Numbered from the whole stretch's first letter, positions 4,387 through 63,763 are shown. The stretch is 63,763 nt of DNA, filler included, from Collodictyon triciliatum (GCA_043381765.1; 29 parts of 29 records of this genome joined end to end with filler, not necessarily neighbours in it); one strand, 5' to 3'. The notes: generated by a model from the sequence alone, not told the origin. Numbers and translations: made by a program.

Positions 4387-6305
4387 TCACTCGTTCGATG
4401 CAGACGATACACAAGACTCGTTGATTTTCCAGCTCCCGCTCTCCGTAGATTCACTTTTGATTGAAGATTCCAGAGCGGTATTCTCTTCTAAACCTAAAAC
4501 GCTATTCGCCCAGACATAATCATCAGGTTTCCGAGACAATATCCGTTTTGCATTGGTACCCGATACCAGCTTTTTGCGTGGAGTTAGCACTGAAAGTAAA
4601 TCGTCAAAGGACTCATCATCCTTTCTAAAGCGTAAAGATTCGGGTTCGTTGTTCCCCAAATCATCCAAAACGCGACAATAAATCGACCCGCTATGACTGG
4701 CTCCGCAATCAGCGGAGTTGGAAGGAGGCCTAGTTATAAGTAGACTCTGTAAAAACAAGAAAAACTATAGGTTTTCAGATATAATAAATCCATTTCGGAA
4801 AGATGAGCTGTAGGTTAAATTAATTTGGTAAGAATAATTAATGTTGATATGGTCATGAATGAAAAATAATAATAAAGATACAAAGAAAAAACCTAAATAG
4901 ACTTTTATGAAGGATGTCGAAGGGGGTTTTCATAATCTCCTGTCTTTCGTCCCACTCTTCTTTTCCTGGACTCTTCATCTTCTCAAATTTGCTTTCAAAC
5001 GAATTTGATTCCAGGTCTAAAGATCCCATGGTAATGGCATCCTTGTCAGAGCTCAGGCTCTTTGGTGCAGGAGATGCGGGAGATGCTGCAATAGTTTCAA
5101 GACTAGGGTTAAATCGCATTTGATATGGTGACGTTTGCTTAAAGAAGAATCCATTTTGGACCCTTATTCCAGGAGAACTTTCGCGTGCATTTCCTCTGGG
5201 TGATTGTGTAATATTGTTTGTTGGTGCTGATCCCTTTTCTATTGTAGGAAGTGAAATGGAACGTCCATCGCGTTGGTTTTGATTCTGGTCCGGTGCTTTA
5301 GATTTAGAAAATCGCAAGGGCGACTGTTTTAGAGAGAAACTCTGCTTCTCTGTGACACTTCGCATAGTTCGAACTGGCGATGCTTTGTTTGACTGATTTA
5401 AAGCGGATTTCTCATCAGACGTCGCTATCAGCGGTGGCGATGAAGTACTGTATACATGGGAAAGATATTATATTTATACAATCTAAGTTAGTGGCTCAAT
5501 AAATGTCAACTACAATCTATATTCCATTCTATTATCACTTTGGTAACGTCAGCGCCAAGTCGGTCATAATCCCAGATTTTATAAATCTGATGTTAAAAAA
5601 ATAATATTTTAATATCACTTGACAATAAAGATGTCTGTACTTATGTATATGAATTACAAATTTATCTTGTCTTTTAAATACATACAATACCTTGAAAAGC
5701 TGTACTTGGATAAGTGATTCCAAGCAATTTTGTAGGAAGTATCGAATACGTGTGGGGATATGTCTCTCGATTGTGAATTTGTTTCCTAAATAAGAAGATA
5801 TATATATATATATAAAAGACAACATTATTTTGCTTTATTTTACAAAGACATAATTACAATGAAATTCCTAAGTATTCACAAAATAAATAAAATTACACAG
5901 TCTACCTGAGACGATTTACCAGAATGAAACTTTTCGTCTAGGATTGCCAGCAACTCAGAGGGAAAATGAAGTCTACATCTCAAGGGCTCTTTCATGAAGT
6001 TCTGTTCGTATTTAAACATTATTAAGGAAATATCCCACATATTACTTTACTAATTTGAGAGGACTTTACTCGATATATGTCCTCCGCTTGCTTTGCTGCT
6101 GTATCTTTTTGAGTAGATTTTTTCATATCTTCAACAGCATCGCAAAACAAGAGAAGCTCATTTGAACCGATCTATGGGTACAGTTATTATATGAATGGGT
6201 GATGCATTCTATGTATAAAATAAGAATGAATTCAAACTGAGAGCAAATATCTTTCGAATATTTTATGGCCCTTAGGATTTTTCGTTAGGTCAGAGAATGA
6301 CATCT
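4387..6305 (-). CDS. RGS (regulator of G-protein signalling) domain protein with a Ser-rich C-terminal region; multi-exon, partial
   Basis: Spliced exons give SFSDLTKNPKGHKIFERYLLS|IGSNELLLFCDAVEDMKK...KQAEDIYR|...VFDTSYKIAWNHLSKYSFSR|FIKS, following the RGS helix pattern. GT-AG introns. Confidence 0.75.
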
Positions 6306-6671
6306 NNNNNNNNNNNNNNNNNNNNNNNNNNNNNNNNNNNNNNNNNNNNTTAATTAATTAANNNNNNNNNNNNNNNNNNNNNNNNNNNNNNNNNNNNNNN
6401 NNNNNGTTTGTTTGTTTGTTTGTTTGTTTGTTTGTTTGTTTGTTTGTTTGTTTGTTTGTTTGTTTGTTTGTTTGTTTGTTTGTTTGTTTGTTTGTTTGTG
6501 TGTTTGTGTGTTTGTGTGTTTGTGTGTTTGTGTGTTTGTGTGTTTGTGTGTTTGTGTGTTTACTTGGCTCTTTTAGCCAATCTCGAAACTCAACAAGCAT
6601 GATTCACAGCAACATTCTTTTCCTCTCGTTAAGGGCACAGTGTAGGATGACCCAGGCTACAGGCCAAACTG

Positions 6672-6818
6672 CATGATGCAATTCCTGATTACCGACTACT
6701 ACTCCGTCACCCGGCTACTAAGTAGCGTCCATGCAGACGATGGCCAGCGAACCAAAGCCAACATCCTCACCATCTCGCACATAATTCAAAGGAATGTTAA
6801 TAATAATGATAATAATGA
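6672..6818 (+). mobile_element. Family-B retroelement 3' end with an AAT-rich tail
   Basis: Homologous to 3853-3977 and 618-667. It abuts the family-A LINE tail on the opposite strand. Confidence 0.7.
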
Positions 6819-7720
6819 TTTTTCCCTTTATTCGATTCAAAGTGCAGCGAGGTTATGCCATACAGAGGGGCGGGATGGGAGCGCATGGTAGAGAGCAACC
6901 GCGAGTAGAAGAACACTACTGTGGAGAGGATAGCACTGGAAAGAAATCAGTGCTAGCGAGTTGGTCAGGTGGGCGACCCAACTGGTTGATTAGCTGCGTG
7001 GGTAGCAGGGGTTGGATGTGCTGTGGGAGATATCGCACGGCACATTCCCACATCTCTCTTCACTCGCGGTCAGAGTAGCGAAGAATGCGGGCGTGTTTCA
7101 GCAAGCTGTTCAGGAAGCTGTATTGCACGAGGCTTTCCAGCCTGGATACACTGATATCTCGTTCAGGTGAATCATTAGAGCGAGAGAATGCATGCACACT
7201 CCATAGGGACCACAGCATATGTCCCCTTGTGACTGTCCAGAGTATTCTAGAGTCGTGGGTCATTTGGTATTGTGGGCCAAACAGGATTCTGACGCGCTGA
7301 GTCGGTTGGGAGCATAATCAAGCCCAGAGAGCATCTTGTGGATAGATTCTGTCACTTTTTGAGCGAAGGGACATTGCACAAATGTGTGCTCAATGGATTC
7401 ATCACGGTTGCTGCAAAGTGTGGATTGTTGGGAGACTTTGCCAGCTTTTGCCCCGCGTGTGCCTATCCATAGCTCCCTATTGGTGATATTAAGCATTAGA
7501 GAGCGATGATTTGGAAGGACTTGCGGGGTTCGTGATTGTCTCCAGCTCGCGGTGAGCGGGGTGTGGGTGATGCCCAGTGTTTCTCCCCACCGTTGATATT
7601 TTGACATTTTGTAGGGATTCGGGCTGATGATTTTATATCGAAAGAATTTGGGGTAGGACATATCCATCGAAAACTGGATAGACTGCTCACCGTTAGACGA
7701 GCGTGCGTTCATGAGGCGAA
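6819..7720 (-). mobile_element. Family-A L1/Tx1-like LINE, degenerate ORF2 C-terminus (zf-RVT) and 3' end
   Basis: LCSNRDESIEHTFVQCPFAQKV is a zf-RVT-type Cys/His motif, followed by ILWTVTRGHMLWSLW. It ends in GCACTTTGAATCGAATAAAGGGAAAA. Frameshift and stop present. Confidence 0.8.
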
Positions 7721-8292
7721 AAAAGAAAAATGGCGACTGGATGTCGTAAGGGATTAAAACGTCCCCTATCTTTTGCTTTCTACCTTGTTTTGTTACCCAC
7801 ATTCCATACAATTCTCAATCACCAACGAAAATCCAAAATTAATGAATTTACTCCGCCCTCCCCTTTGTTGTCCGCTAATTCCTTTCAAATTATTTTAAAC
7901 GTTGCCAACACTTTTTATCCAGACTTTGAATAGAAGGATGAAAAAGAACTTTGTTGCTCTGTAAAAAACCTGCGGAACGAGTCCAAATTTTCGACAACAT
8001 GATTATAAATTCCACATTTGAACAACACATCTGCAAAGTGTCACCGCTATATCGGACAAGCTCGTTTTCAACCGGCAGGAAACCAATCTTTTGAAGAGAG
8101 TCACCTCGAAGTCGACTCTGAAGTGTTCTGCTATTCGACCAGACCGCAAGACGAAAGTCGGACAAACAAACCAAAAAAAAGCCGTGTAAGAAGCCCAAGA
8201 ACCCTGAGGAGGAAGGGATGTGTTGTCTACCTTACATTCCACTAGTAAATTGAGAGCCTCTTTCTCATTATTTTATCTTTTCTCATCATTTT

Positions 8293-10674: not shown

Positions 10675-11763
10675 TAATGTTTTGATTTGGTTTCCTGTCA
10701 CTATATCCCAAATACATATTGTTTTATCACCACTTCCAGAAGCCAACCACTTTTCACCATTCGGTCCTTGAATACTACAAACACTACTGACATTACTTGT
10801 ATGACCTTCCAATTTTTTGATTTGGTTTCCTGTGGTTACATCCCAAATACGAATTGTTCCATCATTACTTCCAGAAACCAGCCAATTTTCACCATTCGGT
10901 CCTTGAATACTGCAAACACTATTGACATTGCTTGTATGACCATATAATGATTTGATTTGGTTTCCTGTGGCTACATCCCAAATACGTATTGTTTTATCAT
11001 GACTTCCAGAAGCCAACCAAATTTCTCCATTCGGTCCTTGAATGCTGCAAACACAATTGACATCTTTTGTATGACCTTCCAATTTATTGATTTGGTTTCC
11101 TGTGGCTACATCCCAAATACGTATTGTTTTATCATGACTTCCAGAAGCCAACCATTTTTCACCATTCGGTCCTTGAATACTGCAAACACTAGTGACAGCA
11201 TATGTATGACCTTCTAATTTTTTGATTTGGTTTCCTGTGGCTACATCCCAAATACGTATTGTATTATCACGACTTCCAGAAGCCAGCCAATTTTCATCAT
11301 TCGGCCCTTGAATACTGCAAACACTAATGACAGAATCTGTATGACCTTTTAATGTTTTGATTTGGTTTCCTGTGGCTACATCCCAAACACGTATTGTTCC
11401 ATCATAACTTCCAGAAGCCAACCAGTTTTCACCATTCGGTCCTTGAATACTGCAAACACTATAGACACCATCTGTATGACCTTTCAATACTTTGATTTGG
11501 TTTCCTGTAGCTATTTCCCAAATACGTATAGTTTTATCTTCACTTCCAGAAGCCAGCCAATTTTCACCATTCGGTCCTTGAATGCAGCAAACACTCATGA
11601 CATAATTTGTATGGCCTTCTAATGTTTTGATTTGGTTTCCTGTGGCTACATCCCAAATACGTATTGTTTTATCACGACTTCCAGAAACCAGCCAATTTTC
11701 ACCATTCGGTCCTTGAATGCTGCAAACACTAGTGACAGCATATGTATGACCTTCCAATTTATC
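10675..11763 (-). repeat. Coding tandem repeat, 135-bp (45-aa) unit, at least 8 copies
   Basis: The unit recurs every 135 nt with high DNA identity (for example GATTTGGTTTCCTGT and ACCATTCGGTCCTTGAAT). Confidence 0.95.
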
Positions 11764-12521
11764 ATTCAGAATTCCAAACTTCACATTATTCATATTTGCT
11801 TTATCAAAAACACAATCACCAAGCATCGAATTCGTGAAATCAACACCATCCAAGTTGGCACCAGGGAGGATTGCACCATCAAGGATTGAGTTACTGAGAT
11901 TTGCATGTGGAATTTTGATGTTTGATAAATCCATCCCACCGAACGAAATATTCATGAAATTCAAAACTGTGATTGCATTAGATGCAACCTTTGCTTTGCT
12001 CTCATCAGTTTTTGACATGTAGACAATTCTGAATAACGATGCGATGATTTGCTCACGATTCCATTCTTCATCTAGTTTTGCATCATCAAGAGTTTCACTG
12101 ATGAATTCCTTGACTCTTGTAAACTCCACAGGCTCTTTGTTGATTCCAGTTTCCTTTGAATGGACGGACAAGTATTCGCACGAGTTTAATGTTCTGGGGT
12201 GAATCCATCCGAGTTTATCTGCGAATCTGTCTCTCATCTCAGCCCAGAATGCGACGCCAATTTCATACAGCTTGTTCTCTTTGCAGTATTGATGTACATT
12301 CTCACAAGCCACCCAGCAGTCCCAGTTTTCATAGGATGACTTTTCACCATGTCTAACAGCAGCTGTTTTGTAAAGCTGAATGGTGGTTTCATGCTCTTTC
12401 TTGTCCTTCATAAGTTCCGCAATCCTTGTACATTGTGAACCATCTTTCAGTGACATGTTTGTCTTTGTCTCCTTTCTGATAGCAGCTGCCTTTTGGAAGT
12501 ATTCCACGACTTGGTCCAATC
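10675..12521 (-). CDS. TPR-like + pentapeptide-repeat + WD40 protein (C-terminal part of a STAND/NWD-type protein); long exon truncated by the contig end
   Basis: Helical segment with GWIHPRTL, then ASNAITVLNFMNISFGGMDLSNIKIPHANLSNSILDGAILPGANLDGVDF (pentapeptide repeats), then 8 near-identical WD40 repeats GHT..V.SVCSIQGPNGE.WL.SGS.D.TIRIWD. Confidence 0.9.
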
Positions 12522-12808
12522 TAAATGCATGCACATTAATTAACAAATATGTAGGGTTTTACAAGTATTAATCAAATTATTCGATTTTTTTAACAAATAG
12601 AGAAATAATCTTTTAAGCTCAAAGTTTGTTCGGCCAATATATTCCAGGAAGCTAGCATTATCAACATCAGAAACATTAAATCCCTTCATATCGATGTTGA
12701 AATCCTCGNNNNNNNNNNNNNNNNNNNNNNNNNNNNNNNNNNNNNNNNNNNNTTAATTAATTAANNNNNNNNNNNNNNNNNNNNNNNNNNNNNNNNNNNN
12801 NNNNNNNN

Positions 12809-25613: not shown

Positions 25614-27023
25614 AGTTACGAAAGTTAAAAAAAGAGCCATCTTCAAGAAACTCGAAATACCGGAATAATACATAGAATGGCTATAACGCATTTGCATCAT
25701 ATCATTCCCAGCGATATTGTAAAAGGGATCGAATATGATGTCAAAGTCAATCCAAATAAGTACATTTCATGTTTGATTTACATGAATCGCATTTTTGAGG
25801 CCATTGGAACCAAACTGTTTCAATCAATCTCTATAAGAACTAATAATATACCATGTCATGTTACTCCAGGTACTGCATGTTTGATAGATAGATTAGTATT
25901 GTCTGGAAAAGCATTTTTACTGAAGAATATACCAGGATGCAAAGAGACACTATGAGATGACTTCTTTGAAATGAAGAATATGGTCTTTCATCAAAGAGAC
26001 TACAATTTTAAATATGATACAAACAGACGGCTTGGCAGTGCCATCATTGTTTGAAAAGAAAGGTATTTCAAATTCAAAATTCCAATTTAATCAAAAACCC
26101 ACCAAGAGTATGTTTATATGAACTTACCGAAGAGCAGCTATCTTTATTAGCGACAAAAAAGAAAGTCAGAGGGGACACAAGCAAGTTTAATTTGATTTAC
26201 GTGGTGGGTGAGGCAGGTAAGAAATTACGTTATACGGCACACCAAACAAGACATGATAGCAAATCCCTTAAAAATCACAAAATACTCTTGCACGAGAAAA
26301 AAAAAATACAATGCTTCAGAGATATGCATGGCAACAGATTTACAAAGTGCTGTCTCTTTTGTCACATGACTTTTGAAGAGAATCAGCGGTTTGAGACATC
26401 AAGAATATCTTTAATCGATTTAGAGACAGAACTGACTAAACATAATTCATGCATCGTCGATTAAGAAAAATTTCGAAAATACGTACCTATGAAATCAAGA
26501 TACCAGATAGAACTTTGCAGATTTTATGAACAAGTAACTTTCCGGAAGATGAGATAGAGACAGTATGTTAACACAAAAAGAAGTGAACCATGATTTATGA
26601 ACCGAATCGAAAAGACATTTGGCAAGGATGTTGTACTGGCGTATGAGACTGGAGCAGAAAATGTCAGATGAGGTATTTGATGCCACCAATCGGAAGGGCA
26701 TTACGAAAAATATTATCCAAATGTTTTGAAACGGTTAGTGTAGATGAATTTAGAACCTCCAAGATGTGCTGCAACTGCGAAAAATAATTGGAATGTATGA
26801 AACTGAAAGGAAATTCAAAAAAAAATTGTATAAATGTCTCGTATGTAAAGAAGGCAATCGCTCAGAAAGCAAACAAAGTGCATTCTTGAAAAGGCAGTTT
26901 ACTAGCGCTAAAAATATACTGAAGTATTTTCAATCATTCAAAAAAAAAAAGCATACATATTTCCCTAAAAAACAGGCTGTCGGGTCTTCCCTGGCAGCCT
27001 TCGCCACTACACAATCTTTGTGA
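25614..27023 (+). pseudogene. Fanzor1 (eukaryotic TnpB-like RuvC RNA-guided endonuclease), degenerate and 5'-truncated by the contig end
   Basis: Ordered motifs across frameshifts: YDVKVNPNKY..IYMN..KLFQ..IRTNNIP; IQTDG; RuvC-I KVRGDTSKFNLIY..KKLRYTAHQ; FMNRIEKTFGKDVVLAY/DWSRKCQMRYLMPPIGRALRK; RuvC-II VSVDEFRTSKMCCNC; LYKCLVC; RuvC-III-position FLKRQFTSAKNIL. Confidence 0.88.
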
Positions 27024-27081
27024 AAAAAAGTGGTGAGACCTTGGATACTAGCGCACCAGTTTTACCAATCGATAGATGGTA
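26974..27081 (+). ncRNA. Candidate Fanzor omega RNA scaffold
   Basis: Back-to-back hairpins overlap the ORF 3' end: 26974-27000 (11 bp, 2 G-U), 27001-27036 (8 bp with 1 G-U plus an inner CACAA/TTGTG stem), and a weaker one at 27063-27081. Confidence 0.55.
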
Positions 27082-28208
27082 TACTCCTTCTAGTACATAA
27101 TATAACACCACGCGCCTGGGGAATATGTTTAGATGCATCAACCACCATATTCTCCCAATCACATACTTCGCTGGGGTTTAAGATACACGCAACGCAGACT
27201 TTGGTGGCCATATTCTCCCTCAGTGCCTTCCCTCAGGGACATAAATCCACATATGGATATGATACAGAACAAGATTTGTTCCTGGAAGACTTTGTCGGAT
27301 TCGACTCCACATTAAAACCTTTTCATTGAAATGTTGATACTTTGCTCCGCGCAACAGAACCACAAATAGTTCGATACGAAGAGAACAACTCTAAATTACC
27401 ATCAGAAACAGCCCCACTCGAACAACACCAAAAGGCCGCCCCGATCCAATCCCCGTTTGCAACAGACACGGGCTGCTTCGCTCTGTCTCGCCCTGCCTGG
27501 CTGCCTCAGATCGCCAGCTTATCGCACTCACACAATTAATAAAAGAGAGAAAGAAAGAGAAAGAAAGAGAAAGAAAGAGAAAGAAAGAGAAAGAAAGAGA
27601 AAGAAAGAGAAAGAAAGAGAAAGAAAGAGAAAGAAAGAGAAAGANNNNNNNNNNNNNNNNNNNNNNNNNNNNNNNNNNNNNNNNNNNNTTAATTAATTAA
27701 NNNNNNNNNNNNNNNNNNNNNNNNNNNNNNNNNNNNNNNNNNNNTTGTTTGTTTGTTTTCATTTTCATGTATTTTCTTCTCCTTTTTTTCTTTTTAACAA
27801 GTGAGACATAATTGATGCGATTTGCGGGGATAAAGGATGTGGCTGGTTTTGAGCAGGAATGATACTTTGCTGTTAGGTCGCAGAGGGGTTAAATGCAAAA
27901 AAGAAACGTCTCTTGTCGTTCACCAGAAGTGAATTCTCCAAAGGATTCCAAGATACTTGCGACGCTGGATGAATCTACAAATATTAAGTTAAGACGTAAA
28001 ATAATAGAAATTAAAAAGAACGGAGTGTCAATTGAATGATGGATGAAAGACTTGAGCTCATGAAACATATTTCATTTTTTATGGTTACTCTGATGATTAC
28101 TCCTGATAGTTTATGCACAAAGGTTGTATGTCACGTATATATAAACCTGCTGGTATTGGTATTATGGAGCATGTTTCTGGTGTCCAAATATAAATCTGGT
28201 CATTTGTC

Positions 28209-43397: not shown

Positions 43398-44570
43398 GAG
43401 GAAACCGCCTTCGCCTCTAGGACAAAAATGAGCTGTGGACAAGACAGTGGAAAACCCCGGATTGTGTGGTTGGAGATTTTATGTTTTGGATGGAAGAAAA
43501 AAAAGTAACAAGATAGAAAGGAGAGAAAGTGTTCTCACACGCAAACTATTTTACCCGAGGTGATTCAGCTCCAACGTGATTTCTGTTTGTGTTCGAGACT
43601 GACAGAAGAGCGGATAAAGTTGTTGGGTCGATGAAGGTACGCACATGGCAGTTACTTCTCAAATCGATTCCGACGAGTCCTTTCAACCATATATCTCAGA
43701 CAAGATGTACATCCTATTTCATTCCACTGGATGAGTCTTTTGAGGGGACAACGGGTCGCTTTCCTTGCGTTTCTTGCTGGGTGACTCTGACAAAAAGCGA
43801 TACATCGTTGTTTGTCTGGTATTCACGGAAGTGGCGCTTGACCGTCCCCTGGTTTCGGGACCATGCGTAGCCGGCAGTGGACTTTGCTTTACCGGAGTAT
43901 TGATACGCGTTTGTGGCTTTGAAACATACGCTCCTGCTTGCTCGGACTGTCATTAATGTGTGAAGTTCCAAGCTTGGATTCAACTTGTGCTGTTAGCTCA
44001 TGCTCCTTGGTTCTCGGCGCGACGGGATGGGGCGGGGTAAATGGACTATCTTTGGTGGGCGCTGGTTCTTTTGATGCCTTCGCTTTGGAGTATCCTTTCG
44101 GATAAGTAACGAAGACTGCCTTGAGGCCTCCTATGTTAACCATATTCACGTCAGTCTTAATTATTATTTTAAGGGGGGATTTATTTTGGGGTTTAGCGAT
44201 GCGCTGCTCTTGGGTTTTGCGATGTGCGGGCTTGTCTGGTGTTGGCGGTGGATGGCTCGAGTGATATGATTCTGAAGAGGAACCGAGATTTCCTTCCATG
44301 TCATCGTCTCTGTCTCTGTATGCACGTATCTGCTGTGAGTCTTGCGGGTTCAGTTGTTGCCTGGCCTTGGCTTCCTTGACCCCGTTGCTGCTTATCTGCT
44401 TGGCGGGTGTATTCTTTTTCGGAGCTTTTACTTGTCGTTCGTTGTTCGCGGCTGGCGGACGCTCTTTGAGGATGCGCTTTGGACACTTTTTACCCATGAC
44501 CGTAAACTTTGCATGGAGCCGGTTCATGTGACAAAGAAGCTTCACCACGGCCGTGTCTGTGAAAAAGCCT
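43398..44570 (-). mobile_element. ORF1/gag-like dispersed repeat, copy 2
   Basis: Homologous to 23481-24480; both encode VNMVNIGG.KAVFVTYPKGYSKAKA. Independent frameshifts in each copy. Confidence 0.7.
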
Positions 44571-44926
44571 NNNNNNNNNNNNNNNNNNNNNNNNNNNNNN
44601 NNNNNNNNNNNNNNTTAATTAATTAANNNNNNNNNNNNNNNNNNNNNNNNNNNNNNNNNNNNNNNNNNNNATGCCCAAGAACCAAAGAAGCTAGAGCGAG
44701 CTTCATGTTGTAATTCAAATGGCCCATCAAACCTGACTGTTGCTCCTCCTTTGTTATATCGTGCATCAATCTGAGAAAGATATGAAAAAGGGAATGATTG
44801 TAGTTGCAAATTAAACAAACAAACAAACAAACAAACAAACAAACAAACAAACAAACAAACAAACAAACAATTCACCATGTGCACCAAAAATGATTTTTCT
44901 CAGAGTTGTATACTAATGTTATCGCT

Positions 44927-61839: not shown

Positions 61840-63605
61840 TAAAGAACTTGGGCGTTGTCTTTTCCGACGTCAAGAATACGTGTGTGCTCGATGATTACCC
61901 AGCAGGTATAGTCATCTACAGGGGTCAATGACGCAAGATTTGCGGGAACTGGTGCCGCGTTAGCTGCGGTGACAACTGAAGCGTGTTTGCAAGACCCGGC
62001 AAACTGAAGTCCGACTTGCACAATACCTGAGTTGCTGCTTGCGTTGTATCCCGAAAGCTCAAATTCGTCCGAGTAATCTGAGCGGGTCATACTCCACCCC
62101 AATGCAAACAGAGTCGGAGTTTTCCAATAATACTCTTCACACATGAGTGGATTTGTGTTATTTGTACCAACAATTGTATTTGCCGTGACAATCATTGCAT
62201 TCTGAACGGCTTTATTGCTGGCATAATTAAATCCTGCGCCTGTTGTCGGTAAAGTCAGTTGAGTTATTCCAGTATTTGATGCGTCACCGACAGTCATTTG
62301 TAGTGGTTGAGTAACCTGTTGACCGAAGTTGACCTGTCCCAGCATCTCGGCACTTGTGTTATATCCCAATGCTTTCATTAAATAATTAAGAGCTTCAGGT
62401 TGCTGACACAAAGCTTGACCCATTGTTGCACTCGCCAGAAAATTGCTTCCTGCTACTGCACCAGTAGTATTTTGGCCAGCGGCCGGTACATTGGCATAAC
62501 CGGGATTTGATAGTTGAATAGGAACTGATGGTAGCACTTTACCATTGACTGTAAGACGTGCTTGTGATAATCCTTCAATTGCATGCATTCTATCCGTACC
62601 TAGATATCCAAGATTACCCTGTTCACAAGCTCGGGTAAATATAAGATAAATTGCATTTATATTTGAGTATTGAACGGAAATATTTTGTGTAACCCATCCT
62701 GATGTCCTTCTTGGAATATTAAACTGAGTCATAAAATATGTTTCAATTGGAATCTGTAAATTATTATTTATCAAATATTGTGAAAGAGCATTGTTATATG
62801 ATGGCTCCGTTTGAATATAATTAATATTCATTTTTATATTACTTAAAGTATAACTAAGAGTTGTATCAGTTTCACTAACAAAATCATTATAGTCTATTCC
62901 TCCAACAGCGGCTGCTACGTCGTTGTATGTTATCATACCATGACTAAAGCACTCTGATGCGGGTGACATCCAAATACGGATTTCCAATGAATTTGGACCT
63001 AGTAAATAAGCAGGCAATAAAGTTTTTATATTCATCAATCCAAGATATCTAAGCGGAAATCCAATTTGAATAGTGTTACTTGTTGTGCCAGCTGCTCCAA
63101 CTAAAAACAATCTGGACCTATCTAGAACAGACTGACCAATACCCATTCCTCCACTCATCAGATTTACCCAATTTTGGTTATTACACCAATTGTGCTTAAA
63201 AGTTTCCAAATATGAATAGTTGTCGATTCTTTCCAATTCACTGCCATTTAAGTATACTGCAATTCTATAAATAAAACTTTCATAACTTTCACACGGACAC
63301 AATATTGGAATTGTTTTAGCAGCAGCAACTCCGCTAATAACACTTCTTTTTAATCTATCCTGAGCAGCAACTGCATCGGCATCTAGTCCTTTTACAGTCA
63401 AATCAGCCACAATATGGGCGCTATCCATCTGTATACTCCATTCATTATCAATTGGAATCCTAAAAACAATTTGAGGGCCAGATGAATAAGTTGCTGTCTG
63501 CTCCGTTCCATTTGACGGCAGTACTTGTCTCATCTGCTTTTCCAAAATAGTCTTCTTTTTTGACGATACATTTCTAAACTGTAGCTCCTCCGGTAGTGAA
63601 TCCAT
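61836..63605 (-). CDS. Double jelly-roll major capsid protein of Polinton-like virus type, 589 aa, complete and intronless
   Basis: LPEELQF..VLPSNG..QIVFRIP; SFIYRIAVYLNGSELERIDNYSYL; IGFPL..GL..LLP..LEIRIWM; YTLSNIKMNINYI; second barrel INAIYLIF..LTVNGKVLPSVPI..LMKALG..FALG..LSGYN. Beta-rich pattern typical of PLV capsids. Confidence 0.8.
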   Translation of the reverse strand: MDSLPEELQFRNVSSKKKTILEKQMRQVLPSNGTEQTATYSSGPQIVFRIPIDNEWSIQMDSAHIVADLTVKGLDADAVAAQDRLKRSVISGVAAAKTIPILCPCESYESFIYRIAVYLNGSELERIDNYSYLETFKHNWCNNQNWVNLMSGGMGIGQSVLDRSRLFLVGAAGTTSNTIQIGFPLRYLGLMNIKTLLPAYLLGPNSLEIRIWMSPASECFSHGMITYNDVAAAVGGIDYNDFVSETDTTLSYTLSNIKMNINYIQTEPSYNNALSQYLINNNLQIPIETYFMTQFNIPRRTSGWVTQNISVQYSNINAIYLIFTRACEQGNLGYLGTDRMHAIEGLSQARLTVNGKVLPSVPIQLSNPGYANVPAAGQNTTGAVAGSNFLASATMGQALCQQPEALNYLMKALGYNTSAEMLGQVNFGQQVTQPLQMTVGDASNTGITQLTLPTTGAGFNYASNKAVQNAMIVTANTIVGTNNTNPLMCEEYYWKTPTLFALGWSMTRSDYSDEFELSGYNASSNSGIVQVGLQFAGSCKHASVVTAANAAPVPANLASLTPVDDYTCWVIIEHTRILDVGKDNAQVLY

Positions 63606-63632
63606 ATTCTAAAAAAGAAAATAATTTTCTAA

Positions 63633-63763
63633 CTAGTAACCAATTTTATTTCTGATATTGTCGTCGTATGATTTTATGACTTTTCCCAGGGATTCGTTTC
63701 GTTGTGCAGCTCCGCGAATTACAGGCGCGTATTTATTTACTTGGTCAACACCTTTTTTAAATT
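63633..63763 (-). CDS. 3' end of an ORF upstream of and co-oriented with the capsid gene
   Basis: Open frame FKKGVDQVNKYAPVIRGAAQRNESLGKVIKSYDDNIRNKIGY*, ending 27 nt before the capsid ATG. Confidence 0.5.
   Translation of the reverse strand, partial: FKKGVDQVNKYAPVIRGAAQRNESLGKVIKSYDDNIRNKIGY

What the first reader, a model, noticed from the sequence alone, without database searches (positions are those of the whole stretch)
25614..27023. Fanzor1 RNA-guided nuclease relic in a protist genome
Seen: an intronless, frameshifted reading frame with, in order, TDG, a RuvC-I-like GDTSKFNLIY, (G)DWS..MP..G..LRK, VDEFRTSKMCCNC, a second CxxC and ..SAKNIL. Established: this is the TnpB/Fanzor RuvC plus zinc-finger layout, and from memory the TDG and GDWS segments match Fanzor1 proteins of giant viruses and protists. 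Inference: this copy is dead (stops, frameshifts, RQ where the catalytic RD is expected). The genome may still hold intact relatives, a possibly uncharacterised Fanzor family with its own TAM and carrier transposon.
Basis: partly seen in the sequence, partly recalled or inferred. Interest (0 to 1): 0.8.

Follow-up and report, generated by a model that had tools for sequence, protein, structure and literature searches.

The report
Dead Fanzor1 nuclease gene copy
This stretch is a broken, non-functional copy of a Fanzor1 gene, a transposon-borne RNA-guided DNA cutter already known from microbial eukaryotes and giant viruses, so it is real but ordinary.

Summary
Window 25621-27011 (+) aligns, frameshift-aware, to residues 177-642 of an intact 648-aa metagenomic protein, P0001: 267 of 460 codons are identical. 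P0001 and its family profile match only the three solved Fanzor1 proteins. That profile hits the window only here, in five colinear pieces.

The copy is dead. It has 7 frameshifts and 6 in-frame stops, the RuvC-III Asp is Gln, one zinc ligand is Gly, and the first ~176 codons are cut off by the contig edge.

The window is a chain of about 30 unrelated 2-kb contigs, so only 2031 bases (25614-27644) are true context.

Public runs hold many related short contigs covering 25614-27109 and none covering 27110-27381. This points to a multi-copy repeat with its right end near 27077-27095. Several of those copies lack this copy's lesions.

The nearest other kin fetched are Fanzor1 genes inside two-gene Tc1/mariner-type transposons on giant-virus contigs, a known association.

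Left end, TAM, guide RNA, copy number and host identity could not be determined. It is a new member of a known kind, of low interest.

The parts
25621..27023 (+). Fanzor1 pseudogene. It corresponds to residues 177-642 of the intact relative P0001, up to the first stop after the last aligned codon (TGA 27021-27023). The N-terminal ~176 codons are missing because the contig begins at 25614.
   Evidence: Frameshift-aware alignment: 267 of 460 codons identical. Profile hits. tblastn.
26023..26031 (+). T-D-G motif (P0001 T312-D313-G314), retained.
   Evidence: T312 is invariant and D313/G314 are >=90% conserved in 33 relatives. Alignment.
26174..26176 (+). RuvC-I catalytic Asp codon (GAC), retained. 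The surrounding GxDPGK has become RGDTSK.
   Evidence: D364 is invariant in 33 of 33 relatives. Alignment.
26644..26646 (+). Frameshift that destroys the Y-G-D-W-S motif. This motif sits where canonical TnpB has its RuvC-II Glu.
   Evidence: Other copies in three runs have an extra G behind 26644, which gives AYGDWS (table 4).
26746..26748 (+). Alternative RuvC-II Glu codon (GAA) in VDEFRTSK, retained. It is followed by the first zinc pair C..C at 26767-26778.
   Evidence: E555 is invariant in 33 of 33 relatives. The alternative glutamate of Fanzors is described in PMC10530073 (passages).
26844..26855 (+). Second zinc pair position, C-K-E-G. The second ligand Cys is replaced by Gly (GGC 26853-26855).
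   Evidence: C587 and C590 are each Cys in 30 of 33 relatives. Alignment.
26892..26903 (+). RuvC-III motif, degenerate: R-Q-F-T where the family has R-D-x-N.
   Evidence: R603, D604 and N606 are invariant in 33 of 33 relatives. Other copies read AAT (Asn) at 26901-26903.
27024..27095 (+). Non-coding tail of the repeat unit, with the approximate right end of the element at 27077-27095. Candidate remnant of the guide-RNA (omega/fRNA) scaffold and transposon right end.
   Evidence: Related contigs of 4 runs cover bins up to 27109 and none covers 27110-27381. Loose ends lie at 27089 and 27095. 26900-27095 folds with z = -3.66, and 0 of 200 shuffles fold as well. There is no covariation evidence, and the sister-clade RNA model does not hit here.
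27096..27532 (.). Flank outside the repeat unit, GC 0.47 against 0.35 for the relic.
27533..27644 (.). Purine-rich microsatellite with an 11-base unit, at which the contig ends.
   Evidence: By my reading of the printed ends, 24 of the 31 N-free pieces of the window end in such short-period repeats.

Best explanation
Window 25621-27023 is a decayed, non-functional copy of a Fanzor1 gene.

Shown: Fanzor1 is the eukaryotic/viral TnpB-derived nuclease with a RuvC fold plus a zinc ribbon, and this copy descends from that family. It cannot make the protein. Its 5' third is absent from the contig. The rest has 7 frameshifts and 6 in-frame stops. One catalytic residue (RuvC-III Asp to Gln) and one zinc ligand (Cys to Gly) are lost.

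Inferred from the literature, not tested here: in intact members the protein binds a guide RNA transcribed from the 3' end of its own element. It cuts double-stranded DNA next to a short target-adjacent motif, using Asp (RuvC-I), a relocated Glu (RuvC-II) and Asp (RuvC-III).

Inferred from read and contig evidence: the copy belongs to a multi-copy repeat family whose right end lies about 55-75 bases after the stop codon. Other members in public runs are better preserved.

Inferred, about 70% likely: the copy sits in the nuclear DNA of a microsatellite-rich microbial eukaryote rather than in a free virus. It was once carried by a DNA transposon. By analogy with its nearest fetched kin, that transposon was perhaps of Tc1/mariner type.

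The confidence given is for the core claim, a dead Fanzor1 copy.
For: Identity:
- One protein among 409 candidates matched the longest frame piece: P0001, 648 aa, E 2.2e-51.
- P0001 against the PDB: Fanzor1 of Guillardia (2.1e-28), Parasitella (2.7e-24) and Spizellomyces (3.7e-23); the next hit is at E 0.38.
- A 33-sequence profile against the PDB matched only those three, at 8.5e-99, 1.2e-97 and 1.6e-69.
- The same profile against the six-frame window gave five colinear hits confined to 25659-26972.
- 150 of 153 fetched family proteins hit the contig by tblastn at E<=1e-3.

Decay:
- Frameshifts at 25681, 26010, 26119, 26297, 26361, 26645 and 26818.
- Stops at 25666 (TAA, aligned to Tyr), 25953 (TGA/Trp), 26462 (TAA/Tyr), 26555 (TAG/Trp), 26591 (TGA/Ile) and 26785 (TAA/Gln). 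The same stop codon aligns to different residues, so no recoding explains them.
- Four frameshifts are mirrored by indels in other copies: +G behind 25678, +AC behind 26013, +G behind 26360, +G behind 26644 (table 4). They are therefore indels, not introns.
- A 216-base contig of run X2 matches 26405-26620 with 0 differences, including three of the stops (table 8). Those stops therefore exist outside this assembly.

Family and copies:
- 126, 11, 39 and 247 contigs of four runs lay on the stretch at 80-99+% likeness.
- Of the 40 best-supported differences listed (of 462), 13 are synonymous and 27 are not. Of the 27, 13 change the window's residue into that of P0001, 3 go the other way and 11 are neither.

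Host-like setting:
- The contig ends in a purine-rich microsatellite, as do 24 of 31 pieces of the window.
- Other contigs carry WD40, protein-kinase, RNase H1 and zf-RVT domains.
Against: - Pfam gives no hit above threshold. The best is PF07282 at E 0.01 and 16.4 bits against a cutoff of 26.3, on one of five pieces. Even intact P0001 reaches only E 0.11.
- The relic's own pieces hit solved Fanzor1 only weakly: E 0.015 and 0.03.
- No whole genome is held. Copy number, intact copies in the same genome and host placement are untested.
- Depth figures from contigs are not copy numbers.
- The frameshifts at 26297 and 26818 lie beside A-runs and could be assembly errors.
- The closest fetched kin besides P0001 are on giant-virus contigs, so a viral or endogenised-virus origin of this contig is not excluded.
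- The covariance model of the sister clade's 3' RNA module finds nothing in the relic's tail. The best hit anywhere in the window has E 0.47 and lies elsewhere.
Confidence: 0.9

Rival explanations
1. The contig is part of a giant virus, either co-sequenced or endogenised as a viral fragment. The relic would then be a dead Fanzor1 element of that virus rather than a transposon of the host genome.
For: In the tree, window+P0001 falls in a 13-row group with all 9 IMG/VR Fanzor1 rows (SH-aLRT 94). Those loci have giant-virus-type neighbours: an mRNA capping enzyme/methyltransferase fusion, a ribonucleotide reductase small chain and a large helicase. Another contig of the window encodes a virophage/polinton-like capsid candidate, so virus-related DNA is in the assembly. 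The relic's GC (0.35) differs from its flank (0.47).
Against: The viral rows were fetched with patterns taken from this very clade, so their clustering is partly built in. The group's support is below the star threshold. Seven frameshifts, six stops and a long microsatellite within 2 kb are unlike the compact viral loci seen. Many diverged copies (80-99%) within single runs suit a genomic repeat. The contig ends in the same kind of microsatellite as most other contigs.
Confidence: 0.2
2. The gene is intact in the organism. The breaks would be artefacts of a poor short contig (indel errors, collapsed repeat copies), or would be read through by an unusual genetic code, introns or programmed frameshifting.
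For: It is a 2-kb unplaced contig of a repeat family, where collapsed or chimeric assembly is common. Two frameshifts (26297, 26818) sit beside A-runs. Other copies lack several of the lesions.
Against: The six stops are substitutions, not indels. TGA aligns to both Trp and Ile, and TAA to both Tyr and Gln, so no single reassignment works. Other contigs of the window have 590- and 643-codon open frames in the standard code. Invariant residues are also replaced (D604Q, N606T, C590G, P365T). An independent run holds 26405-26620 letter for letter, with three of the stops. The frameshifts are 1-2 base offsets with no intervening sequence, so they are not introns.
Confidence: 0.04
3. The relic is a domesticated or non-coding remnant kept for a function other than the nuclease. 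For example, it could serve as a source of a guide-like RNA (a 'ghost locus') for intact Fanzor copies elsewhere.
For: The 3' part 26900-27095 folds much better than shuffles: z = -3.66, with 0 of 200 shuffles as stable. The tail up to ~27090 is shared between copies. Saito et al. mention omega-RNAs from 'ghost loci' (PMC10432273, passage).
Against: There is no covariation evidence and no RNA evidence for this. The stability rests on one sequence. The sister-clade RNA model does not match. Sharing of the tail between copies is expected for any transposon end.
Confidence: 0.06

Closest known systems
Fanzor1 nucleases with solved structures: Spizellomyces punctatus SpuFz1 (8gkh, 9ceu-9cez), Parasitella parasitica Fz1 (9cf0-9cf3), Guillardia theta GtFz1 (9cer-9cet)
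   Same: The family profile built around the relic's closest relative aligns to them over nearly the full length: profile positions 5-605 of 614 on SpuFz1, E 1.2e-97. They share the T-D-G motif, GxDPG (RuvC-I Asp), YG(D/N)W at the canonical RuvC-II place, the relocated Glu in DE..TSK, the zinc ribbon and RDxNxAxNI. The intact relative is 648 aa.
   Different: The window copy is a pseudogene lacking its first ~176 codons. It has 7 frameshifts, 6 stops, RD changed to RQ and one zinc Cys lost. P0001 is only distantly similar to the solved proteins in pairwise search (E 1e-23 to 1e-28). No guide RNA or TAM is known for this subclade.
Fanzor1-bearing Tc1/mariner-type transposons of giant viruses and protists (PGv-1, PUl-1 and relatives; Bao and Jurka 2013, PMC3627910, passages read)
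   Same: The nearest fetched kin besides P0001 are 9 IMG/VR loci, 41-47% identical to P0001. In L001 and L004 a DDE_3 + HTH transposase is read divergently from Fanzor1; L005 keeps only a 140-aa transposase remnant. In all 9 loci the ~30-base terminal sequence ending in GGTGTAA is found inverted on both sides of the Fanzor gene, which is compatible with a TA target duplication. In L001 the element spans 4638-7951.
   Different: No transposase, left end or inverted repeat can be seen for the window copy, because the contig is cut inside the ORF. Its tail shows no significant match to the sister clade's terminal module. blastn found no DNA similarity between the contig and any of the 21 fetched loci at E<=1e-5.
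TnpB (IS200/IS605, IS607) and Fanzor2
   Same: Same RuvC + zinc-ribbon core. Same general logic: a transposon-encoded nuclease guided by an RNA from the element's 3' end.
   Different: At E<=1e-3 the family profile matches no solved TnpB, Cas12 or Fanzor2 chain. The canonical RuvC-II Glu position is occupied by G-D/N-W, and the Glu sits ~34 residues downstream. PMC10530073 describes this rearranged site for all Fanzors and for a subset of TnpBs.

Membership tests
Fanzor1 | Full-length sequence homology to established Fanzor1 proteins | tested here: met
   The profile of 33 relatives matches SpuFz1, PpFz1 and GtFz1 at E 1.2e-97, 8.5e-99 and 1.6e-69. The same profile hits the window in 5 colinear pieces. 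The relic's own pieces hit only weakly, at E 0.015 and 0.03.
Fanzor1 | RuvC-I catalytic Asp | tested here: met
   GAC at 26174-26176 aligns to D364, invariant in 33 of 33 relatives. The neighbouring invariant Pro is lost (Thr).
Fanzor1 | Relocated RuvC-II Glu next to [TS][TS]xx-CxxC (PMC10530073; motif of PMC3627910) | tested here: met
   GAA at 26746-26748 in VDEFRTSKMCCNC aligns to E555, invariant in 33 of 33 relatives.
Fanzor1 | Complete C4 zinc ribbon | tested here: not met
   The first pair is present (26767-26778). In the second pair C587 is kept, but C590 (Cys in 30 of 33 relatives) is Gly at 26853-26855.
Fanzor1 | RuvC-III R-D motif | tested here: not met
   R-Q at 26892-26897. D604 and N606 are invariant in 33 of 33 relatives; here they are Gln and Thr.
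Fanzor1 | Uninterrupted coding sequence of a ~600-700-aa protein | tested here: not met
   7 frameshifts and 6 in-frame stops. The N-terminal ~176 codons are absent at the contig edge. It is therefore a dead descendant, not a working member.
Fanzor1 | Guide RNA (omega/fRNA) encoded at the 3' end of the element | tested here: inconclusive
   The tail up to ~27090 is shared by copies and 26900-27095 folds with z = -3.66. There is no covariation or RNA data, and model R1 of the sister clade's module (18 pairs, 14 with compensatory changes) does not hit it.
Fanzor1 | Residence in a transposon with definable ends, target duplication and TAM | tested here: inconclusive
   The right boundary is only approximate, at 27077-27095, from where related contigs stop matching. 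The left end is off the contig, so no TIR, TSD or TAM can be read.
Fanzor2 / TnpB | Closer similarity to TnpB/Fanzor2 than to Fanzor1 | tested here: not met
   Only Fanzor1 chains appear at E<=1e-3 in the PDB profile search. NCBIfam gives no TnpB model hit for any piece.

The most novel reading that the evidence does not exclude
The relic is one worn member of a recently active, multi-copy Fanzor1 transposon family in a freshwater microbial eukaryote. Copies up to 99+% alike are found in several public runs. The family would be sister to Fanzor1 genes riding Tc1/mariner-type elements in giant viruses. Under this reading, the same organism still holds intact ~650-aa nucleases with an undescribed guide RNA and TAM, and the family moved between virus and host.
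Probability: 0.35. Interest if true: 0.4.

Novelty: new member of a known kind. Interest (0 to 1): 0.22.

Why it matters
It matters little on its own. Fanzor1 genes are known in thousands of variants, with up to 122 copies per genome (PMC10530073, passage), and dead copies are the usual fate of transposon genes.

The finding has two modest uses:
- It flags a subclade (P0001 and the better-preserved copies seen in public runs) from which an intact, compact RNA-guided nuclease could be recovered.
- It adds one more case of close kinship between Fanzor1 of a eukaryote-like genome and Fanzor1 of giant viruses. This bears on the old suggestion that such viruses spread these elements (PMC3627910, passages).

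Tried and rejected
- Whole-genome search for other copies: no genome is held. Within the window no second copy exists.
- Pfam and NCBIfam on the five frame pieces: only a sub-threshold PF07282 hit.
- Rfam on the whole window: no match.
- IMG/VR scan with P0001 alone: 36 pattern matches, none confirmed. A 3-sequence alignment then worked.
- Metagenome pattern scan: 12 loci, all of the more distant sister clade (41-55% to P0001). None shows DNA similarity to the window contig: the blastn output at E<=1e-5 was empty, and the script then stopped on the empty line. Element ends could therefore not be defined from full-length close copies.
- RNA model of the sister clade's 3' module against the window: 32 hits at E 0.47-9.9, none in 26900-27100. 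My by-eye resemblance between the two tails is therefore unsupported and dropped.
- Expression: no RNA holder is listed among the 16 runs. X10 is only guessed to be RNA.
- Habitat: the holders are freshwater, lake or riverine metagenomes with small word shares of 0.05-0.11. Laying four of them showed that they hold related copies. I name no sample or organism.
- Alternative genetic code, introns and programmed frameshifting: rejected (see rivals).
- RIP-like directional mutation: the kinds of change against other copies are balanced. In X10, A>G 46 plus T>C 44 stand against G>A 35 plus C>T 38, so there is no clear bias.
- The first tree run did not finish. A faster model was used.
- No structure prediction or complex prediction was run; neither was needed.
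- Supplementary tables of the Fanzor papers, which list loci and hosts, were not seen. They may already contain this subclade.

Full report
**What the window is.** The 63,763-base window is not one locus. It is a chain of about 30 contigs of ~2.03 kb each, sorted by length. They are joined by 100-base spacers: 44 N, TTAATTAATTAA, 44 N. The finding lies in one such contig, 25614-27644 (2031 bases). Only that stretch is true context, and the neighbouring contigs are unrelated pieces of the same assembly. No whole genome is held for this window.

**The observation.** I searched a public protein collection with the longest frame piece (26090-26653, stops read as X). One protein among 409 candidates matched: P0001, an intact 648-aa metagenomic protein (E 2.2e-51, 57% identity). 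Its 90% cluster has 3 members, all from metagenome sources, and none has a functional name.

I wrote a frameshift-aware protein-to-DNA alignment. It places P0001 residues 177-642 on window 25621-27011, with 267 of 460 aligned codons identical (58%). As a chance control, I built a profile from 33 full-length relatives, with no window sequence in it, and searched all six frames of the window. It hits five colinear pieces between 25659 and 26972 (i-Evalues 4.7e-31, 1.2e-3, 2.8e-40, 3.6e-18, 5.9e-8). Nothing else scores better than 0.05.

**What family it is.** P0001 matches the three solved Fanzor1 proteins: Guillardia theta (2.1e-28), Parasitella parasitica (2.7e-24) and Spizellomyces punctatus (3.7e-23). 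The next PDB hit is at E 0.38. The 33-sequence profile matches the same three at 8.5e-99, 1.2e-97 and 1.6e-69, covering positions 5-605 of 614 on SpuFz1. It matches no TnpB, Cas12 or Fanzor2 chain at E<=1e-3.

A full scan of 1.84 billion representative proteins with P0001 finds 3147 relatives at E<=1e-3 and 537 at E<=1e-30. Of the 153 proteins fetched, 150 hit the contig by tblastn.

Weaker results should be stated too:
- Pfam sees almost nothing: PF07282 at E 0.01, below threshold, on one of five pieces, and E 0.11 on intact P0001.
- The relic's own pieces hit solved Fanzor1 only at E 0.015 and 0.03.

The identification therefore rests on the intermediate relative and the profile.

**Why it is dead.** The alignment needs seven frameshifts, at 25681, 26010, 26119, 26297, 26361, 26645 and 26818. 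It crosses six in-frame stops:

| Position | Codon | Aligned to |
|---|---|---|
| 25666 | TAA | Tyr |
| 25953 | TGA | Trp |
| 26462 | TAA | Tyr |
| 26555 | TAG | Trp |
| 26591 | TGA | Ile |
| 26785 | TAA | Gln |

. The same stop codon stands for different residues, so no recoding explains them. Other contigs of the window also have 590- and 643-codon open frames in the standard code.

The state of the conserved residues (33 relatives):

| P0001 position | Role | In the window |
|---|---|---|
| D364 (33 of 33) | RuvC-I Asp | kept, 26174-26176 |
| E555 (33 of 33) | relocated RuvC-II Glu | kept, 26746-26748 |
| G521 (33 of 33) | G of Y-G-D-W | lost to the 26645 frameshift |
| P365 (33 of 33) | next to RuvC-I Asp | Thr |
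| D604 (33 of 33) | RuvC-III Asp | Gln, 26895-26897 |
| N606 (33 of 33) | RuvC-III motif | Thr |
| C590 (30 of 33) | zinc ligand | Gly, 26853-26855 |

The first ~176 codons are missing because the contig starts inside the gene.

**Other copies.** No public run holds the contig as a whole. Fifteen runs of 12 studies hold 5-11% of its sampled words. I laid four of them on the contig: three freshwater metagenomes and a coded 'organism A'. They gave 126, 11, 39 and 247 short contigs at 80 to 99+% likeness. These cover every bin from 25614 to 27109 and none from 27110 to 27381. That is the picture of a multi-copy repeat whose similarity stops shortly after the gene. Loose ends at 27089 and 27095, and pieces ending at 27077, put the right boundary at about 27077-27095. 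That is 55-75 bases after the stop codon at 27021-27023.

Four of the seven frameshifts are mirrored by indels in other copies:
- +G behind 25678
- +AC behind 26013
- +G behind 26360
- +G behind 26644; this last one restores A-Y-G-D-W-S.

The stop at 25953-25955 reads TGG in others.

Only 40 of the 462 differences are listed, so the following rests on a subset. Of those 40, 13 are synonymous and 27 are not. Of the 27, 13 turn the window's residue into that of P0001 (for example K-H-F and T in Q-M-K-H-F-M-P-T, and Asn at position 606), 3 go the other way and 11 do neither. So better-preserved relatives exist in nature. Whether any is fully intact, and whether it is in the same genome, cannot be told from 150-400-base contigs.

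One 216-base contig of run X2 equals 26405-26620 without a difference, three stops included (table 8). Those stops are therefore not private errors of this assembly.

**Host or virus.** The relic has GC 0.35 and the flank 27096-27532 has 0.47. The contig ends in an 11-base purine-rich microsatellite. By my reading of the printed ends, 24 of the 31 N-free pieces of the window end in similar short-period repeats. Other contigs carry WD40 repeats, a protein-kinase exon, an RNase H1-type gene and a zf-RVT retroelement fragment. This fits a microsatellite-rich eukaryotic genome in which the relic is one repeat among many. 'Protist' is consistent with this but not shown.

A viral or endogenised-virus origin keeps about one chance in five, because the next kin are viral (next section). 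Another contig also encodes a virophage/polinton-type capsid candidate.

**Relatives and carrier.** With patterns from a three-protein alignment, IMG/VR yielded 9 loci encoding uninterrupted Fanzor1 genes 41-47% identical to P0001. They lie on contigs of 14-255 kb, two of them named as giant-virus MAGs. Their neighbours include a capping-enzyme/methyltransferase fusion, a large helicase and a ribonucleotide reductase small chain.

In a quick LG+G4 tree of 74 rows, window+P0001 are sisters (SH-aLRT 100). They fall with all 9 viral rows in a 13-row group (94, below the star level). The viral rows were fetched with this clade's own motifs, so their clustering is partly built in.

In L001 and L004 the Fanzor gene sits beside a divergently read DDE_3 + HTH transposase; L005 keeps only a 140-aa remnant of it. 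In all 9 loci the same ~30-base sequence ending in GGTGTAA lies inverted on both sides of the Fanzor gene; in L001 the element spans 4638-7951. This is the Tc1/mariner-Fanzor1 arrangement described in 2013 for giant viruses and oomycetes (PMC3627910, passages).

A metagenome pattern scan added 12 more loci of this sister clade. Across 11 of these loci, a ~175-base module spans the gene's end and terminates in the right inverted repeat. It is conserved at the nucleotide level whether or not it is coding. RNAalifold predicts 18 pairs in it, and 14 of them show compensatory changes. This is as expected for the guide-RNA scaffold (PMC10530073, passages).

A covariance model of that module does not find the relic's tail. 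blastn finds no DNA similarity between the contig and any fetched locus. The carrier and the RNA of the window's own subclade therefore remain unknown. The tail 26900-27095 does fold well (-49.2 kcal/mol, z -3.66, 0 of 200 shuffles as stable), with two hairpins around the stop codon. That is one sequence and no covariation.

**How it works.** Nothing about function is shown for this copy. It is a fossil. For its intact kin I rely on the literature. Fanzor1 is an RNA-guided double-strand DNA endonuclease of eukaryotes and their viruses (PMC10432273, passages; PMC11423790, listing and start of abstract only). It has a rearranged RuvC site in which the canonical RuvC-II Glu is lost and a Glu about 45 residues away takes over. 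It is often multi-copy and transposon-associated (PMC10530073).

**Verdict.** The thing is a new, dead member of a well-known kind. Other notes from this scan describe similar dead Fanzor1 copies elsewhere and judged them ordinary; I did not test those. I did not see the papers' supplementary tables, which may already list this subclade.

Noticed in passing
window 61836-63608 (-), in a separate contig 61739-63763: A 590-codon open frame with no Pfam hit. By language-model features its nearest clusters are viral capsid proteins (score 0.98). They are mostly Preplasmiviricota, some carrying Capsid_N or Sputnik_MCP domains. This is a lead for a virophage- or polinton-like virus capsid gene, either integrated or co-sequenced.
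   Followed up: partly
L001 4638-7951; likewise L002-L009 and metagenome loci L010, L012, L013, L018-L020: The sister clade's Fanzor1 genes end in a ~175-base conserved module that runs into the transposon's right inverted repeat (ending GGTGTAA). RNAalifold predicts 18 pairs, 14 with compensatory changes. In L001 the transposase frame reads through the left inverted repeat and stops at its last three bases. This is probably the guide-RNA scaffold of a known Tc1/mariner-Fanzor1 element type.
   Followed up: partly
window 23602-24210 (-) and 43889-44614 (-): Two different contigs carry long frames with near-identical stretches (for example V-N-M-V-N-I-G-G-.-K-A-V-F-V-T-Y-P-K-G-Y-S-K-A-K-A in both). 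This is another repeat family of the assembly. It was not identified.
   Followed up: no
window 10675-12558 (-): An open frame running off the contig end encodes at least eight near-identical WD40 repeats behind a non-repeat N-terminal part.
   Followed up: partly
window 17075-19106: The whole 2-kb contig is a satellite of 6-base units (GAGACT/GAGATT-like), open in all six frames.
   Followed up: no
window 7260-7814 (-) and 53418-54155 (-): A zf-RVT domain, pointing to a non-LTR retroelement fragment, and an RNase H1-type gene with an N-terminal Cauli_VI domain. Each lies in its own contig.
   Followed up: partly
whole window: By my reading of the 30-base ends printed, 24 of the 31 N-free pieces begin or end in short-period, mostly A/G- or T/C-rich repeats. 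The assembly breaks at microsatellites, which suggests a very microsatellite-rich genome. Two pieces also contain internal N runs of 554 and 561 bases.
   Followed up: partly
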